This document shows positions 54,456 through 63,910 of a DNA stretch of 64,000 nt, piece after piece. This stretch comes from Eledone cirrhosa. Its lineage: Eukaryota. The stretch lies in the NCBI GenBank assembly GCA_964016885.1, contig OZ024742.1:356128001-356192000 (forward strand). The letters run 5' to 3'. A program made the translations under genes and the position numbers. The stretch's first letter is position 1. The number at the start of each line of letters is the position of its first letter. The notes beneath the pieces were generated by a model. That model was given only the letters and a program-made list of their open reading frames with translations, did no database searches and was not told the origin of the DNA.

Positions 54456-54966
54456 ATACTTCATACATTCACACAACTAGTGTACACTTGCTGTTATCTC
54501 TTGTGTTAATCAATAGGAAGAGATGGAAAACAAAGAAAAACCTAAAGAGAGCCTTAGTTGTATGTATTTTACTATGATAGTTATTGATGGTATGTAATGT
54601 TCACAGCACATCAAGCCAATCGTATGAGTTATTTCACTGAAGCCATCAAACTTTATCAATAATACTACTTTATCTTGTATTTCAAACAGTAAGTCCTTAC
54701 CTTACAATCATTCTACTTATGAACTTCTGCAGATACAAACAGTATCATGAAGAAAAGAAAAATTGTCAGACATTATATTCGCATTTTGGGGGGTTCTTTT
54801 GGGCCCTGGGTTACTTCTTTTGCAACATATAAAAGGGTTCCGCCTTTTGCAGCATAAAAAAAGGGTTCCTTCTTTTGCAGTATAAAAACAAGTTGGAATC
54901 ATACCTGTGGTATGCAATACCATTCTGCTTTCGCAGAATTAAAAGAGCACATTTTTCTTTAACAAT

Positions 54967-57057
54967 TTGTCATTAGTTTTACATTATATAATTCATTATT
55001 ACAATAAGGTAGATGAAGCAGTCAAGGCCAAGAGACAGGCATGGAAAGAATGGAAGAACGGGGGGAGCAGGGTACATTACATAGAGACCAAGAGGGAAGC
55101 TAGGCGACAAGTATACTTAGCTAGGAGGGAAGCAGAGGATAGAAAATTCAAGCATGTTTTACAACGTGAGGACCAGAAACAGGAGGTATTCAAGATTGCG
55201 AGGCAGTGTGTCAGAGATAGTTGTGATGTCATTGGAGAGAAGTGTATCCGGAATGATAAAGGTGAGCTTGCCCTCACAAGTGCTGAGAAGAAAGATGCAT
55301 GGAAGAGTCATTATGATAGATTACTAAATGAGGAGAATGCATGGGAAGAAGAGACCCTACCCCACGTAGACCCTATAGAGGGACCAGCAGTACAAGTCAG
55401 CGGCAGCGTAGTAAGTAAGGCAATCAGAGATATGAAGATAGGGAAGGCAACCGGTCCATCGGGTATAGCTGCCGAGATGCTGAAGGCATCTGGGTCTGTA
55501 GGTCACACTATAACCACACGTATCGTTAACCAGGTAATACTAGAGGGGGCCATACCAAAAGATTGGTGCAGTAGCATCATTGTCAACTGCTACAAAGGTA
55601 AAGGCGATGCACTAGATAGAGGAAACTATAGAGGTATAAAGTTGATGGACCAGGTCATGAAAGTAACAGAAAGAGTTATAGCACAGCTGATTAGGAACCG
55701 GGTGAATATAGACGAGATGCAATTTGGGTTTGTACCAGGGAAAGGCACCACTGATGCCCTCTTCCTTGTGAGGCAATTACAGGAAAAGTACCTAGCTAAA
55801 AGTAAGCCACTCTACTTGGCATTTGTCGACCTTGAGAAAGCCTTTGACAGAGTTCCACGTGCAGTAATCTGGTGGGCTCTTAGAAAACTAGGAGTAGATG
55901 AATGGCTTGTTAAAGCGGTACAAGCCATGTATAGGGGAGCAGTCAGCAAAGTTAGGATTGGCAATGAGTATAGCGAGGAATTTAGCGTACAGGTTGGGGT
56001 CCACCAGGGCTCTGTTCTTAGCCCTCTCCTGTTCATCATAGTCCTGCAGGCAATAACGGAGGAGTTTAAGACCGGATGCCCATGGGAACTCCTGTATGCT
56101 GATGACCTCGCACTCATAGCTGAATCTATGGTAGAACTAGAGAATAAATTCCAAACCTGGAAGCAGGGACTAGAGAGAAAGGGCCTCAAAGTCAACATGA
56201 CAAAGACTAAGGTCCTTATAAGTAGACGAGAAAACAGAACCCAGATCCCCTCAGGGAAATGGCCTTGCTCAGTATGTAGGAAAGGTGTAGGTAGGAACTC
56301 CATTCTCTGCCCCAAATGCAAACAATGGGTACACAAGAGATGTAGCGGGATCTCAGGAAGCTTAATTAAGAATGTAGGATTCACATGCAGCAGCTGTGCT
56401 GAAACAGCAAGCAAACAGCCACAGGAAACAAGTACCACCAATCTCTGGGAGGGCCCTGTAGAAACAGTAGACAGCTTCTGCTACCTAGGTGACCGAATTA
56501 GCAACGGAGGTGGGTGCTCAGAAAGTACAATAACTAGGGTAAGAACGGGATGGAAGAAGTTTAGGGAACTACTACCACTGCTAGCTGCAAAAGGCTTCTC
56601 CCTCAGAATGAAAGGCAGACTGTATGATGCGTGTATCCGAACAGCGATGTTGCATGGTAGTGAGACCTGGGCGCTGAAGGTGGAAGACTTACGTAGATTA
56701 GAGAGAAACGAAGCCTGCATGCTCCGATGGATGTGTAACAGTAATATACGTGAACGACAAAGCATAAAGGAATTGAGAGAGAGACTGAACATAAGAGGAA
56801 TCAAATGCTGCGTGCAGGAGAGGCGGTTACGCTGGTATGGACATGTGATGCGTATGAAGGATGACAGCTGCATAAAAAGGTGCAGAGCACTAGAAGTTGA
56901 TGGAAACCGCGGAGTGGGGAGACCCAAGATGACTTGGGATGAGGTGATAAAAGCTGACCTTACCCAACTACACCTCTCAAAGTCAATGACACACGACCGT
57001 GACTTCTGGCGTCACGCAGTAATACAGGGTACCCGACCTCCCATGGGTACATGCTGA
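54967..57057 (+). CDS. RTE LINE ORF, partial: RT domain, PHD-like zinc finger and C-terminal region; no APE endonuclease or native start
   Basis: 696 codons containing GPSGIAAEMLK, YRGIKLM, QFGF, FVDLEKAFDRVP, GVHQGSVLSPLLF, LYADD, CSVC..CPKC..H..C..CSSC, FCYLG and RLRWYGHV. The first ~12 codons are flanking DNA. Confidence 0.85.
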   Translation: MSLVLHYIIHYYNKVDEAVKAKRQAWKEWKNGGSRVHYIETKREARRQVYLARREAEDRKFKHVLQREDQKQEVFKIARQCVRDSCDVIGEKCIRNDKGELALTSAEKKDAWKSHYDRLLNEENAWEEETLPHVDPIEGPAVQVSGSVVSKAIRDMKIGKATGPSGIAAEMLKASGSVGHTITTRIVNQVILEGAIPKDWCSSIIVNCYKGKGDALDRGNYRGIKLMDQVMKVTERVIAQLIRNRVNIDEMQFGFVPGKGTTDALFLVRQLQEKYLAKSKPLYLAFVDLEKAFDRVPRAVIWWALRKLGVDEWLVKAVQAMYRGAVSKVRIGNEYSEEFSVQVGVHQGSVLSPLLFIIVLQAITEEFKTGCPWELLYADDLALIAESMVELENKFQTWKQGLERKGLKVNMTKTKVLISRRENRTQIPSGKWPCSVCRKGVGRNSILCPKCKQWVHKRCSGISGSLIKNVGFTCSSCAETASKQPQETSTTNLWEGPVETVDSFCYLGDRISNGGGCSESTITRVRTGWKKFRELLPLLAAKGFSLRMKGRLYDACIRTAMLHGSETWALKVEDLRRLERNEACMLRWMCNSNIRERQSIKELRERLNIRGIKCCVQERRLRWYGHVMRMKDDSCIKRCRALEVDGNRGVGRPKMTWDEVIKADLTQLHLSKSMTHDRDFWRHAVIQGTRPPMGTC

Positions 57058-57363
57058 AGCATATAAACAATATGCCCCCACTCCCCCCACCGCAAGGTGG
57101 TCGTGGAGGTGCCATGGCAAAAAAGCACCCAGCCCACACTGTAAAGTGGACGTGTAGGCGCCACGAAAAAGCACCCAGCACTCACTGTAAATGAGGTTGG
57201 TGTTAGGAAGGGCATCCAGCTGTAGAAATCAAGCCAGATCAGTTCCTGTATGAGCAAGGCATGGTCAGCCGACCAGACACTGCCCACAACAGGACAACCC
57301 GTCTAACCCATGCTAGCGTGGAAGAACGGACGTAAAACGGTGATGATGATGATGATGATGATG
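55001..57363 (+). mobile_element. RTE-clade LINE subfamily A, 5'-truncated, young copy
   Basis: Uninterrupted RT frame, 3' UTR and (GAT)n tail. Possible TSD tatataattc at 54985 and 57367. Confidence 0.95.
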
Positions 57364-57383
57364 TTATATATAATTCTATATAC

Positions 57384-57422
<39 letters not shown>

Positions 57423-57451
57423 CATGTTATAAATACGTTTATTTACTATAT

Positions 57452-60400
57452 ATCATCATCATCATCATCAACGTTTAACGTCTGTGTTCCACGCTTGCAT
57501 GGATTTGGACGGGGGTTTTCCCACTTGAGGCAAGAGTGATTATCTTGCTCGCATAGGACTATCTGGTGGGTTTTCTACAGATGGATGCCCTTCCTAACAC
57601 CAACCACATTTACAGTGTGGGGCTGGGAGGTTTTTACCGTGTTGCCTACACGACCACATTACAGCGTGGACTGTGTGTTTTTTGACGTGACACCTACACA
57701 ATCTCATTTGTTTCGGCCTGGATGTTGTGGCACCAACATAACTTTACATTGAAAGGGGTGGTGTGGATGGGGTGGGGTTGGTGGGACGGGGGTGTATTTT
57801 GTTAGAGATGCCTACTGACTGTAGTAGGTTTTACTTTGTATTTAGGTAAGGCGGGTCTTCTCTATTACTGTGTACCGCCAAAGGTCTCGGTCCAGTGACA
57901 TTGTCTTGGTGAGGTGTAAGTGTGTGAGGTCGGAATTTATCAGCTCGTCCCAGGTTTTTCTGGGTCTGCCTATTCCGTGGCTACCGTCTATCTTTATTGC
58001 CATGCACTTTGTTATACAGCTATCGTATTCATGTGCATCACGTGACCATACCAATGTAGACTTCTCTCGAGTAAACAACATCTGATTCCTCTTATTTCTA
58101 ATTTATTCCTTAGTTCGTTTATGCTTTGCCGTTCATGTATATTACTATTACACATCCAGCGGAGCATGGAAGCTTCGTTTCTCTCTAGTCTGCGTATATC
58201 CTCTGCACACAATGCCCAGGTCTCACTGCCATGCAACATTGCTGTTCGTATGCAGGCATCATACAACCTGCCTTTCATTTTTAGGGAGAACCCTTTAGCG
58301 GCTAATAGTGGTATAAGCTCTCTGAACTTTTTCCATCCAGTTCTGACTCTAGCTACTGTACTTTCAGAGTACCCTCCCCCACTGCTGATTTTGTCACCCA
58401 GGTAACGGAAGCTGTCCACTATTTCTATAGAACCCTCTGCGCAGTTGAAAGAGCTAGTATTTTGTGGGCACTTGCTGCTACTTATTGCACCAGAGCACCG
58501 GCCACATATAAAATCTATGTTCTTAGTTAGCTTACCTGTGATCCCATTACATCTTTTATGCACCCATACTTTGCATTTTGGACACAAAATGGAGTTTCTA
58601 CCTACGCCTTTCCTACACACTGAGCATGGCCACTTCCCGGAAGGGACTGCCGCCTTATTTTCTTTCCTACAAACTAGTACTTTGGTCTTAGCCAGGTTAA
58701 TTTTAAGGCCTTTTGATTCTAGGCCGTGCTTCCATGTTTGGAATTTCTTCTCTAGCTCGGCCATTGATTCAGCTATGAGTGTTAGGTCATCTGCGTATAG
58801 GAGTTCCCATGGGCAACCGGTCTTGAACTCCTCTGTTATAGCCTGAAGGGCAATAATAAATAGTAGGGGGCTGATAACAGAGCACTGATGGGCGCCAACT
58901 TTTACGCTAAACTCTTCATTATATTCGTTGTTAATTCTAACCTTGCTGACTGTTTCTTTATACATGGCTTGTATAGGTCTCACAAGCCATTCGTCAACAC
59001 CTAGTTTTCTAAGAGCCCACCAGATAATGGAACGGGGGACTCTGTCGAAGGCTTTCTCCAAGTCGACAAAAGCTAAGTATACGGGTTTACTTTTAGCTAG
59101 GTACTTCTCCTGTAGTTGTCGTACAATGAAAAGAGCGTCTGTGGTACTTTTGCCTGACACAAACCTGAACTGCATTTCATCTAGATCAATTCTCTCTCTG
59201 ATTAGTTGCGCTATTACTTTTTCCGTGACCTTCATGACCTGGTCGATTAATTTAATGCCTCTATAGTTACTCCTATCTAGGGCATCTCCTTTACCCTTTA
59301 ACAGTTAACGATTATGCTGCTACGCCAGTCCTTCGGAACAACCCCATTCTGAACGACTTGGTTAACTACCTGGGTGACCATGGTGTGTCCAACCGTACCA
59401 GATGCCTTCAGCATCTCGGCAACAATTTCCGAAAGGCCAGACGCCTTACCCGTCTTCATATCTTTGATTGCCTTACTTATTATACTACCCTCGACTAACA
59501 CTGCTGGTCCCTCTATTGGATCGATGTGGGGGAAACTATCTTTCTCCCATTTATTCTCCTCATTTAGTAGCCTTTCATAGTGACACTTCCAAGCTACCTT
59601 CTTATCAGCGTCGGTGATGGCATGTACGCCGTCATCATTAAATACACACTTCTCCCCGACAATATTACGGTTTTCCTTGACACATTGCCTATCAATCCTG
59701 AACACCTCACGTTTTTGGTCCTCACATTGTAGAACATGCTTGAACTTTCTTTCCTCTGCTTCCCTTCTTGCGAAGTACACTTGTCTCCTAGCTTCCCTGC
59801 TGGCCACTTGATAGTCTTCTCTGCTTCCCCCATCCTGCCATATTTTCCAAGCCTGCTTTTTGGCCTTAATTGACCCCTTCACCTTACTGTTCCACCACCA
59901 TGTTACTCTCCTCCTGCCTACAGGCCTGCTCCAGCCACAGACTTTGTCTGCCGCCATCAGCAGGTTTGCTTTCAGGAATTCCCACTGCTCCTCTATATTG
60001 TACGACTCTAATTGCTCTTCCTTACTGTCGAAAGCATCAAGTAGTATACTTTTGAATTTATTTCTGGCTGTGGGGTCCTTTAGCTTCCATATTTTTCTCC
60101 TGAGGATAATCCTCTTCTGTTGTCTAGTACGTCTCGTCCTGACTATTAGGTCGCTAATTATCAGTCTATGTTGAGAGGTGCATTCTTCATGGGGGAGGGA
60201 TTTAGTGTTTACAACAGACACTCTGTCACGTCTTCTGGTAAGGATATAATCTACCTGGCTTGTGTGTTCCCCCGATCTATAGGTGATCAGGTGATTGTCA
60301 CGCTTTTTGAAGTTAGTGTTACAGATAGTTAGGTTATTTGCATCACAGAATTCCAGGATTCTGGAGCCTTCCTCATTTCTAGTACCAAACCCATAGCCTC

Positions 60401-60459
60401 CATGGATTTCGTCGTAGCCGTCACAATGTTGTCCAACGTGACCATTTAGGTCGCCTGCA
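57452..60459 (-). mobile_element. RTE-clade LINE subfamily B, 5'-truncated within the APE domain
   Basis: ORF 59298-60503 has the APE C-terminal motifs GDLNGHVG, NT.F.K, ITY.SG, SQVDYIL and SQHRL. ORF 58012-59235 has RT (YADD). (CAT)n tail at 57452. Confidence 0.95.
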
Positions 60460-60487
60460 ATATATATATATATATTATATATATATA

Positions 60488-62725
60488 TCATCATCATCAT
60501 CAAGGTTTAGCGTCCGTGTTCCACGCTTGCAGGGGTTTGGACGGGGGTTTTCCCACTTGAGGCAAGAGTGGTTGTCTTGCTCGCATAGGACTGTCTGGCG
60601 GGTTTTCTACAGCTGGATGCCCTTCCTAACACCAACCACATTTACAGTGTGGGGCTGGGAGGTTTTTACTGTGTTGTCTACACGGCCACATTTACAGCGT
60701 AGACTGTGTGGTTTTTGTCGTGACACCTACACGATCTCATTTGTTTCGGCCTGGATGTTGTGGCACCAACATAACTTTACATTGAAAGGGGCGTTGTGGA
60801 TGGGGTGGGCGTGGTGGGACGGGGGGTGTGTTTTGATAGAGATGCCTACTGACTGTAGTAGGTTTTTACTTTGTATTTAGGTAAGGCGGGTCTTCTCTAT
60901 TACTGAGTACCGCCAAAGGTCTCGGTCCAGTGACATTGTCTTGGAGAGGTGTAAGCGTGTGAGGTCGGAATTTATCATGTCGTCCCAGGATTTTCTGGGT
61001 CTGCCTACTCTGTGGCTACCGTCTATCTTTATTGCTCTCCACTTTGTTATACAGCTGTCGTCTTTCATGCGCATCACGTGACCGTACCAACGTAGCCTTC
61101 TCTTGAGTAAACAACATCTGATCCCTCTTATTTCTAATTTTTTCCTTAGTTTATTTATGCTTAGCCGTTCACGTATATTACTATTGCACATCCAGCGGAG
61201 CATGCAAGCTTCGTTTCTCTCTAGTCTGCGTATATCCTCTGCACACAATGCCCAGGTCTCACTGCCATGCAACATTGCTGTTCGTATGCAGGCATCGTAT
61301 AACCTGCCTTTCATTTTTAGGGAGAACCCTCTAGCGGCTAACAGTGGTATAAGCTCTCTGAACTTTTTCCATCCAGTTCTGACTCTAGCTACTGTACTTT
61401 CAGAGTACCCTCCCCCACTGCTGATTTTGTCACCCAGGTAACGGAAGCTGTCCACTATTTCTATAGAACCCTCTGCGCAATTGAAAGAGCTAGTATTTGT
61501 GGGCACTTGCTGCTACTTATTGCACCAGAGCACCGGCCACATGTAAAATCTATGTTCTTAGTTAGCTTACCTGTGATTCCACTACATCTTTTATGCACCC
61601 ATACTTTGCACTTGGGACATAAAATGGAGTTTCTACCTACGCATTTCCTACACACTGAGCATGGCCATTTCCCGGAAAGGACCGCTGCCTTATTTTCTTT
61701 CCTACAAACTAGAACTTTAGTCTTAGCCAAGTTAATTTTAAGGCATTTTGATTCTAGGCCGTGCTTCCATGGTTGGAATTTCTTCTCTAGTTCAGTCATT
61801 GTTTCAGCTATGGGCGTTAGATCATCTGCGTATAGGAGTTCCCATGGGCAGCCAGTCTTGAACTCCTCTGTTATAGCCCGAAGGGCAATAATAAATAGTA
61901 GGGGGCTAAGAACAGAGCCCTTATGGACACCAACTTTTACGCTAAACTCTTCACTATATTCGTTGTTAATTCTAACCTTGCTGACTGTTTCTTTATACAT
62001 GGCTTGTATAGCTCTCACAAGACATTCGTCAACACCTAGTTTTCTACCAGATAATGGAACGGGGGACTCTGTCGAAGGCTTTCTCCAAGTCAACAAAAGC
62101 TAATATAGGGGTTTACTTTTAGCTAGGTACTTCTCCTGTAGTTGTCGTACAATGAAAAGAGCGTCTGTGGTACTTTTGCCTGACACAAACCCGAACTGCA
62201 TTTCATCTCGATCAATTCTCTCTCTGATTAGTTGCGCTACTACTTTTTCCGTGACCTTCATGACCTTGTCGATTAATTTAATGCCTCTATAGTTACACCT
62301 ATCTAGGGCATCTCCTTTACCCTTGTAACAGGTAATGATGATGCTGCTATGCCAGTCCTTCGGAACAACCCCATTCTGTATGATTGGTTTACTATCCGGG
62401 TGACCATGGTGTGTCCCACCGTTCCAGAGGTTTTCAGCATCTCAGCAATTATTTCCGAAGGCCCAGCTGCCTTACCCGTCTTCATATCTTTGATTGCCTT
62501 ACTTATTATACTACCTTCGACTAACACTGCTGGTCCCTCTATTGGGTCGATGTGTGGGAGACTGTCTTTCTCCCATTTGTTCTCCTCATTTAGAAGCCTT
62601 TCGTAGTGACACTTCCAAGCTACCTTCTTATCAGCGTCAGTGATGGCAAGTATGCCATCATCATTAAGTACACACTTCTCCCCGACAATATCACGGTTTT
62701 CCTTGACACATTGCCTAGCAATCCT
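60488..62725 (-). mobile_element. RTE-clade LINE subfamily B, 5'-truncated, tandem with the previous copy
   Basis: ORFs 62303-62824, 61461-62096 and 60877-61506 carry frameshifted RT and C-terminal motifs. (CAT)n tail at 60488 next to (TA)n. Confidence 0.95.
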
Positions 62726-62806
62726 GTAAACAAACTGACTGCCTGAATTTATGCCGTACGGTGTTAAGTCAACCACGTCACCTTTTTGTTCAACACTGAC
62801 ACAGGA

Positions 62807-62849
62807 ACGATGTACTAGTTTCAAGCTTCTTAGCTATCATCAGCACCGT
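62807..62849 (-). ncRNA. Minimal type I hammerhead ribozyme, intact
   Basis: Minus strand: acggtg-CTGATGA-t-agct aaga agct-t-GAAAC-ta-GTA-catcgt. Confidence 0.85.
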
Positions 62850-63050
62850 ATACCCTTCTGCCAGATGGTTGAAAGTTCGAAAGTATATACTTTCCTTATG
62901 AAAATTAACGGATGAGCAGCCTAATTTGCATATCGAGTGAGTTCAGTCGGCCAGGCGCACCGAAAACGATAAGTTGTAATAAAATGAAAACGAAATTTCA
63001 TTTCTCACTCTATATACTTTCGAACGTTCAACCATCTGGCAGAAGGGTAT

Positions 63051-63093
63051 ACGGTGCTGATGATAGCTAAGAATCTTGAAACTAGTACATCGT
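63051..63093 (+). ncRNA. Minimal type I hammerhead ribozyme, intact core
   Basis: acggtg-CTGATGA-t-agct aaga atct-t-GAAAC-ta-GTA-catcgt, with one stem II mismatch. Confidence 0.82.
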
Positions 63094-63240
63094 TCCTGTG
63101 TCAGTGTTGAACAAAATGGTGACGTGGTTGCTTTAACACCGTACAGCATAAATTCAGGCTGTCAGTTTGTTTACAAACCGACAAAGCGGGCGTTATAATA
63201 AACGTCCGTTAAACTGATACGTACATATATGTATGTGTAC

Positions 63241-63293
<53 letters not shown>

Positions 63294-63409
63294 TGCTACT
63301 GTACGTCTGTATACATATATGTATGTACGTATACATACATACTTACATTTAAGTAAGTGCCGTACTAAGAGTGAGAAATGAAATTTCATTTTCATTTTAT
63401 TACAACTTA

Positions 63410-63470
63410 TATATATATTATATATATATATATATATATTATATATTATATATATATATTATATATATAT

Positions 63471-63523
<53 letters not shown>

Positions 63524-63655
63524 TTATATATATATAATATATATTATATATATTATATATATATATATTATATATTTATATATTTATATATATTTATATA
63601 TTATATATTTATATATTTATATATATTTATATATTATATATTTATATATTATATA

Positions 63656-63689
<34 letters not shown>

Positions 63690-63694
63690 TTATA
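63410..63694. repeat. (TA)n-rich microsatellite
   Basis: Directly visible. Confidence 0.97.
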
Positions 63695-63910
63695 GATGTG
63701 AGAAAAACCACAGACCCTCCATCTCAACTCACCTTTTGAAAAGCAGACGAATTACGAAACCGGTAAATGAACCAAATAAATATATATATTTTTAAAAAAA
63801 AATAAGACTTCAGTTGCATTTTCGATTTCATCTCTTTTTCTTTATATTTTCACTCGTGTAGGACACCTCGGTTATTTTTCATTTTGTAAAAAAAACCTCA
63901 CTTTCTAATA
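63695..63910 (+). mobile_element. pLTR/retrozyme-like repeat with a variant hammerhead (63733-63768)
   Basis: Second copy of 51822-52035. Reads ctt-TTGAAAA-gcag acgaa ttac-GAAAC-cg-GTA-aat and is flanked by (TA)n on both sides. Confidence 0.55.

What the first reader, a model, noticed from the sequence alone, without database searches (positions are those of the whole stretch)
62303..63410. Twin opposed hammerheads in an inverted repeat fused in frame to the 5' end of an RTE LINE
Seen: 165-bp inverted arms each carry an intact minimal hammerhead pointing away from a 121-bp spacer, which contains ATTTGCAT (octamer) and a GC-richer patch. The left arm joins the RTE directly. The minus-strand ribozyme would cut ~85 nt upstream of the RTE sequence, ORF 62824->62303 reads from the arm into RTE coding sequence, and the junction resembles a splice acceptor (tttgtttacag|G). 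Established: some RTE and R2 elements use 5' self-cleaving HDV-like ribozymes, and PLE pLTRs occur inverted. Inference: most simply an inverted PLE pLTR that interrupted the LINE, but possibly a bidirectional ribozyme cassette or a hammerhead-RTE chimera.
Basis: partly seen in the sequence, partly recalled or inferred. Interest (0 to 1): 0.74.

Follow-up and report, generated by a model that had tools for sequence, protein, structure and literature searches.

The report
Broken retrozyme abutting a truncated LINE
The two opposed self-cutting-RNA motifs are one damaged copy of a common hammerhead repeat of this animal genome, likely inserted by Penelope-type jumping-gene enzymes; its joint to the neighbouring LINE fragment occurs once in the genome and is most likely an accident, not a new hybrid element.

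Summary
The anatomy is real: 165-bp arms (96%), a 121-bp gap, a minimal type I hammerhead motif in each arm (the right one has a broken stem II pair), and a direct joint to a 5'-truncated LINE. The interpretation changes. Arms and gap are pieces of one 457-541-bp tandem unit (473 exact hammerhead matches genome-wide), a non-LTR retrozyme / non-autonomous Penelope-like element. The 'spacer' is just the left arm's own upstream sequence. Head-to-head pairs are the family's usual insertion form (29 of 41 sampled places), with variable inner joints and two fixed outer ends 59 nt apart in (TA)n, one of each in 18 of 18 complete pairs: the Penelope 'tail' signature. Here the left outer end is missing. 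The arm-LINE joint is single-copy, has 2-nt microhomology, and neither element continues on the far side. The 'fused ORF' has no early ATG, no catalytic domain and frameshifts after about 150 codons. Most likely the LINE landed in the (TA)n at the left end and removed about 130+ bp. No RNA data were available. The scan reported this kind of two-armed retrozyme before on other DNA of this genome.

The parts
60488..62726 (-).
   Evidence: the neighbouring copy of the family has RVT_1 and a weak Exo_endo_phos_2 match
62725..62726 (-). Arm-LINE joint, 2-nt microhomology (CA), single copy in the assembly
62725..63011 (-). Left arm including the 'spacer': retrozyme unit positions -198 to +88 (0 = predicted cut); outer end lost
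62807..62849 (-). Minimal type I hammerhead motif, family-consensus sequence; predicted cut between 62813 and 62812
62924..62931 (-). Octamer ATGCAAAT, about 112-119 nt upstream of the left cut; part of the normal unit (10 of 10 units printed); promoter role untested
63011..63410 (+). Right arm: unit positions -76 to +156, internal (TA)n, then -275 to -156, ending at the family's long fixed end
63051..63093 (+). Minimal type I hammerhead motif with a private G>T at 63074 that breaks a stem II pair; predicted cut after 63087
62303..62833 (-). Open frame across the joint: about 35 codons of arm, about 115 codons of LINE linker, then out of frame; judged incidental
63411..63694 (.). (TA)n-rich target microsatellite
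63695..63908 (+). Separate 3'-end fragment of an autonomous Penelope-like element (RT + C-terminal GIY-YIG, 775-aa ORF elsewhere), candidate mobiliser

Best explanation
The locus is a head-to-head copy of a multicopy non-coding hammerhead repeat (non-LTR retrozyme) whose left end is missing and abuts, at a single-copy joint, a 5'-truncated LINE; the pair was likely made by a Penelope-type enzyme and the joint likely by a later LINE insertion with deletion. Steps: (1, shown) arms and spacer are unit positions -198..+88 and -76..-156 of a tandem monomer; (2, shown) family insertions are typically inverted with one outer end at -156 and the other at -215, both in (TA)n; (3, inferred) a Penelope-like RT/GIY-YIG protein cut (TA)n and primed cDNA from both broken ends at two internal RNA sites, and the two cDNAs were joined at a short microhomology; (4, inferred) this copy's left arm originally ran on to -215; (5, inferred) the LINE primed in the (TA)n at that end and its truncated 5' end annealed 2 nt into the arm at +88, removing about 130 bp plus the TA run (or a later deletion did the same); (6, inferred) the result is inert as a coding unit.
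For: 473 exact matches to the 32-nt hammerhead, 0 for the reversed control; tandem units of 457-541 bp; 29 of 41 distinct places inverted, 18 of 18 with both ends intact pair -156 with -215, 16 of 29 inner joints overlap by 1-5 nt; two internal RT start sites, both-strand cutting, AT-rich targets and the tail are shown for a Penelope element in vitro (PMC11167929, parts 1-2 of 4 read); inverted 5'-truncated copies and a one-sided tail are typical of PLEs (PMC8557442, passages); a young autonomous PLE in this genome (16 of 150 scored hits with a 775-aa open frame; RVT_1 just under cutoff and GIY-YIG) also ends at two sites 59 nt apart in (TA)n. Joint: 1 match with <=1 mismatch in 3.0 Gb; 1 of 14 LINE copies truncated at this site has retrozyme upstream; no other unit breaks at +88 by pattern; neither remainder is present in 84 kb; the same LINE sits in retrozyme (TA)n at 3 other sampled places (L017, L018, L106); microhomology and long target-site truncation are known for LINE 5' joints (PMC4245944, abstract and passages).
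Against: The order of events is not shown: LINE copy 1.75% from its relatives' majority, arms 1.7% and 2.6%, too close to order. No empty or ancestral allele was seen. The retrozyme unit shares no sequence beyond low-complexity matches with the 775-aa PLE, so that partner is only a candidate. The first 26 places were chosen by similarity to a query that holds the inversion, which inflates the inverted fraction (9 of 15 in the pattern-picked set, two of them with 335- and 775-nt gaps). Cleavage and transcription are untested.
Confidence: 0.8

Rival explanations
1. Same retrozyme origin, but the LINE (longer at first) was there or arrived independently, and a later microhomology-mediated deletion at the unstable palindrome removed the LINE's 5' part and the arm's outer end.
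For: 11 of 29 inverted places have one end away from the fixed sites or unresolved; 2-nt microhomology fits end joining; LINE and arms are of similar age.
Against: Nothing separates it from insertion-with-deletion; 7 of 13 other LINE copies truncated at this site also join non-(TA)n DNA directly, so no extra event is needed. Counted partly inside the best explanation's step 5.
Confidence: 0.1
2. One-off RNA-level chimera: the LINE RT switched template onto retrozyme RNA at +88 during one integration, while the other end of the break was primed at -156.
For: Same orientation of arm and LINE; similar ages; no target-site duplication; L005 shows a similar same-orientation joint at +90 to a PLE 3' fragment.
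Against: Needs two RT systems and two RNAs at one break; +88 is no hot spot (1 match); two nearby ends among about 7 non-TA broken ends is within chance (my rough estimate, about 0.2); many LINE copies lack a duplication anyway.
Confidence: 0.06
3. A functional hammerhead-led LINE family or a bidirectional ribozyme cassette.
For: The left hammerhead is consensus and lies 86 nt before the LINE; the octamer lies between the two motifs; the frame is open across the joint.
Against: Single-copy joint; the LINE lacks its endonuclease part and has 4 indels; no early ATG and no Pfam match; inner breakpoints vary freely; right stem II is damaged; an acceptor at the joint would splice the arm out rather than fuse it (inference).
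Confidence: 0.03
4. Assembly artefact (fold-back read or mis-join between two repeats).
For: No listed contig bridged the joint in 3 DNA runs of one other sample (the tool warns that a hole proves nothing).
Against: The arms differ at 7 of 165 sites, each with private changes; the right end obeys the family's fixed-end rule; that sample holds only 46% of the sampled words and differs at many sites, so it is another individual or a relative.
Confidence: 0.01

Closest known systems
Metazoan non-LTR retrozymes (Cervera and de la Pena 2020, PMC7229834, passages read; Li, Clavereau and Pollet 2026, 10.64898/2026.07.22.740005, parts 1-3 of 5 read)
   Same: Non-coding tandem units of a few hundred bp, one type I hammerhead each, AT-rich, co-occurring with autonomous PLEs that are the proposed mobilisers; weak palindromic helix III and a U-U at the base of helix II are each described for axolotl motifs.
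   Different: This copy holds no complete unit and is inverted; 'inverted' does not occur in the main text of PMC7229834. Expression, cleavage and circularisation are untested here.
Penelope-like element insertions (Craig et al. 2021, PMC8557442, passages; Frangieh et al. 2024, PMC11167929, parts 1-2 of 4)
   Same: Inverted 5'-truncated copy, a tail on one end only, two internal start sites, AT-rich or (TA)n targets, minimal hammerhead.
   Different: No RT/GIY-YIG ORF in the element; tail 59 nt rather than 30-40; no sequence match to the candidate autonomous partner.
LINEs with a 5' self-cleaving ribozyme (R2, PMC3774820, search listing only; RTE HDV-like ribozymes recalled, not read)
   Same: A self-cleaving motif lies upstream of LINE coding sequence on the sense strand.
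   Different: There the ribozyme is HDV-like and part of the element's own 5' end in all full copies; here it is a hammerhead from another repeat, joined once to an internal truncation point.

Membership tests
non-LTR retrozyme | Type I hammerhead in each tandem unit | tested here: met
   Family arrays of 457-541-bp units, one motif per unit
non-LTR retrozyme | At least two consecutive complete units ('active' in Li et al.) | tested here: not met
   This locus has two partial, opposed units; other loci of the family meet it
non-LTR retrozyme | Non-coding, no LTR pair | tested here: met
   No Pfam match for the frame that crosses the arm; ends lie in (TA)n
non-LTR retrozyme | Expressed as linear and circular unit-length RNA; self-cleavage | not testable with these tools
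   The only RNA run offered covered 114 nt of the LINE part only
Penelope-like insertion signature | Inverted 5'-truncated partner copy | tested here: met
   29 of 41 places
Penelope-like insertion signature | Two fixed ends giving a one-sided tail | tested here: met
   18 of 18 complete pairs use one end each, 59 nt apart; at this locus only the long end survives
Penelope-like insertion signature | AT-rich / (TA)n target | tested here: met
autonomous PLE pLTR | Attached to an RT + GIY-YIG ORF | tested here: not met
   None of the mapped loci shows the unit attached to such an ORF within 1.5 kb flanks as judged from their ends; no match to the 775-aa element; a search with the unit's 3' end returned nothing, even itself, so a rare partner is not excluded
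ribozyme-led LINE (R2/RTE type) | Ribozyme is a constant part of the element's 5' end | tested here: not met
   Single-copy joint at an internal truncation
RTE clade | RT phylogeny and single EN-RT ORF | not tested

The most novel reading that the evidence does not exclude
The joint records a single integration in which a LINE reverse transcriptase jumped onto retrozyme RNA while a Penelope enzyme primed the other end, creating an octamer-driven, hammerhead-capped LINE fragment: a snapshot of how LINEs acquire 5' ribozymes.
Probability: 0.06. Interest if true: 0.55.

Novelty: new member of a known kind. Interest (0 to 1): 0.22.

Why it matters
The headline claim (hammerhead-LINE chimera or bidirectional cassette) does not hold, so this locus matters little by itself. 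The family-level pattern has some value: strict pairing of two fixed ends in a non-coding hammerhead repeat is genomic support for the proposed, not yet shown, mobilisation of retrozymes by Penelope enzymes, and a young intact 775-aa PLE with the same 59-nt end spacing offers a testable partner. Better-preserved arrays elsewhere in this genome suit that test better than this copy.

Tried and rejected
Rfam scan: no hammerhead match, only low-complexity miRNA hits. Free folding of each arm did not give the hammerhead fold; pairing was checked by hand-set constraints. LINE continuation on the far side: none in 20 kb. Missing outer part of the left arm: not found in 84 kb. Search with the unit's 3' end failed even on itself. 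A shared LINE truncation point with the copy at window 11406 suggested a hot spot or splice site; 14 truncated copies in about 7 nt genome-wide, no control position run, so not claimed. +88 as a hot spot: 1 match; the control position gave 4 matches, all internal variants. Target-site duplications: of 13 other truncated LINE copies, 3 had no tail in the fetched DNA, 4 no match, 3 only TA matches, 3 short other matches. RNA evidence: the one RNA run is a metatranscriptome with one 243-nt contig on the LINE part; no listed contig bridged the joint in three DNA runs of one sample, which proves nothing. Conservation of the hammerhead among 48 units was not used, since many loci were picked by that motif. 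An off-by-one comparison of the right tail was redone; an octamer count failed through a wrong pattern. Paper searches for a PLE-RTE hammerhead chimera and for a cephalopod hammerhead (taxon a guess) listed no such report; only listings were seen. Supplements were not read; those of the bioRxiv preprint are closed and may list related families.

Full report
Observation. The inverted repeat is as described: arms 62725-62889 and 63011-63175, 165 nt, 96% complementary, 121 nt apart. Each arm holds CTGATGA, a 4-bp stem II flanked by T-T, GAAA, a 2-bp palindromic stem III, a GTA cut site and a 6-bp stem I: a minimal type I hammerhead motif. Rfam did not detect it and free folding did not produce it, so it is a motif-and-pairing call. 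The left motif equals the family majority; the right has a private G>T at 63074 that breaks one stem II pair. Predicted cuts are 62813/62812 and 63087/63088. The left cut is 86 nt before the LINE.

What the arms are. A search of the own genome (3.0 Gb) with spacer plus right arm gave 163 matches from 40 of 2713 candidates scored; the 32-nt hammerhead has 473 exact matches, 0 for the reversed control. The matches are tandem units of 457-541 bp, varying in an internal (TA)n. With 0 at the cut, the window is unit -198..+88 on the minus strand (62725-63011) and -76..+156, (TA)n, -275..-156 on the plus strand (63011-63410). So the 'spacer', octamer included (10 of 10 units printed), is the ordinary upstream part of the left arm. 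The 165-bp repeat is simply where the two partial units overlap.

The inversion is the family's normal insertion form. Of 41 distinct places (26, biased towards inversions by the query; 15), 29 are head-to-head (9 of 15 in the second set, two with long gaps). Inner breakpoints differ from place to place; 16 of 29 overlap by 1-5 nt, this one by 1. Outer ends are fixed: in the 18 places where both lie within 5 nt of -156 or -215, all 18 pair one with the other (chance about 4 in a million if each end chose freely); the other 11, this locus among them, have one end elsewhere or at the edge of the fetched DNA. Both fixed ends run into (TA)n. This matches what is in print for Penelope-like elements: inverted 5'-truncated partner copies and a one-sided tail (PMC8557442, passages), explained in vitro by cutting of both strands of AT-rich DNA and reverse transcription from two internal RNA sites (PMC11167929, parts 1-2 of 4). 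Tandem type I hammerhead repeats are the non-LTR retrozymes, proposed to be non-autonomous PLE derivatives (PMC7229834, passages; 10.64898/2026.07.22.740005, parts 1-3 of 5).

A candidate mobiliser. The piece at 63695-63908 is the 3' end of an abundant young element. Upstream in other copies lies a GIY-YIG frame; 16 of 150 scored hits sit in a 775-aa open frame with RVT_1 (just under the curated cutoff) and C-terminal GIY-YIG, and a CX4CxxC motif before the nuclease, as described for Neptune/Nematis in PMC8557442. Its copies also end at two sites 59 nt apart in (TA)n. It shares no sequence beyond low-complexity matches with the retrozyme unit, so the partnership is inference.

The joint to the LINE. 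The 21-nt joint has one match with up to 1 mismatch in the genome. A 173-nt query found 39 other LINE copies, each matching only the LINE side (40 of 934 scored). A pattern for copies broken at this site gave 26 matches; 12 were internal variants and 14 true 5' truncations, of which 6 follow (TA)n, 7 follow other DNA and 1, this one, follows the retrozyme. No other unit breaks at +88 by pattern. The overlap is 2 nt, and the acceptor-like CAG/G is present in 7 of 7 intact relatives. The LINE's 5' part is not in the next 20 kb, and the arm's missing part (+89..+156 and -275..-215) is not on the minus strand anywhere in 84 kb: sequence was lost at the joint. There is no target-site duplication. 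The same LINE family sits in the (TA)n of other retrozyme copies at L017, L018 and L106: both elements use the same microsatellites, so collisions are common. Microhomology at truncated 5' ends and long target-site truncations are known for LINEs (PMC4245944, abstract and passages). Divergence does not order the events: LINE 18 of 1027, left arm 5 of 287, right arm 6 of 233, with no shared derived change between arms.

The open frame. It is 176 aa stop to stop: about 35 codons of arm, about 115 of the LINE's linker, then out of frame at a 1-nt deletion near 62383. Codon 62824 is TTG, the first ATG is residue 117, Pfam finds nothing, and the LINE copy has 4 indels. One joint in three is in frame by chance (arithmetic). 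The predicted cut would fall inside the frame.

RNA and independent DNA. The only RNA run offered gave one contig on the LINE part. Three DNA runs of one other sample hold both repeats; no listed contig bridges the joint, and loose ends go on into native LINE or native unit sequence. That fits a private joint but proves nothing.

Earlier notes. I reached the retrozyme and two-fixed-end reading before looking. The scan's notes then showed the same kind of two-armed element on other DNA of this genome, one with ends 59 bases apart; these are AI notes, not support. A look-up by sequence found nothing.

Verdict. A new member of a known kind, in a damaged copy. The chimera and cassette readings are not supported. 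Paper searches (listings only for the papers not named above) showed no report of a hammerhead-RTE chimera, and this locus does not supply one.

Noticed in passing
window 63695-63908; L095-L102: 3' end of a young autonomous PLE (775-aa ORF, many intact copies). Its hammerhead-like motif reads CAGA(A/C)GA instead of CTGANGA in all copies printed, with a short stem II: a fixed variant or dead core in an apparently active family.
   Followed up: partly
L005:1240-1340: A retrozyme left arm ends at +90 and joins the PLE 3' fragment in the same orientation across an A run, a parallel to this locus.
   Followed up: partly
window 11406 and 62726; window 60460 and L063:9283: Two pairs of LINE copies share nearly the same 5' truncation point; possible preferred stops, no control run.
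   Followed up: partly
L110, L113, L123, L128 (unit +91 to +94): Several arms begin just 3' of a small perfect hairpin at unit +78..+91, a possible RT stall site.
   Followed up: no
L010:1000-1100, L040, L096:6778-6821, L175: Diverged relatives of the unit (about 75-86% identity) and a related hammerhead, suggesting older subfamilies.
   Followed up: no
G000:C2:60568855-60610980: A cluster of more than 20 hammerhead units over about 42 kb, spaced from 0.5 to 4.7 kb apart.
   Followed up: no
window 54943-62726: Three LINE copies packed tail-to-tail and head-to-tail around (TA)n runs; their C-terminal region scores as a PHD finger.
   Followed up: partly
L031:1400-4000: A broken LTR-retrotransposon-like pol stretch (by eye; not searched).
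   Followed up: no
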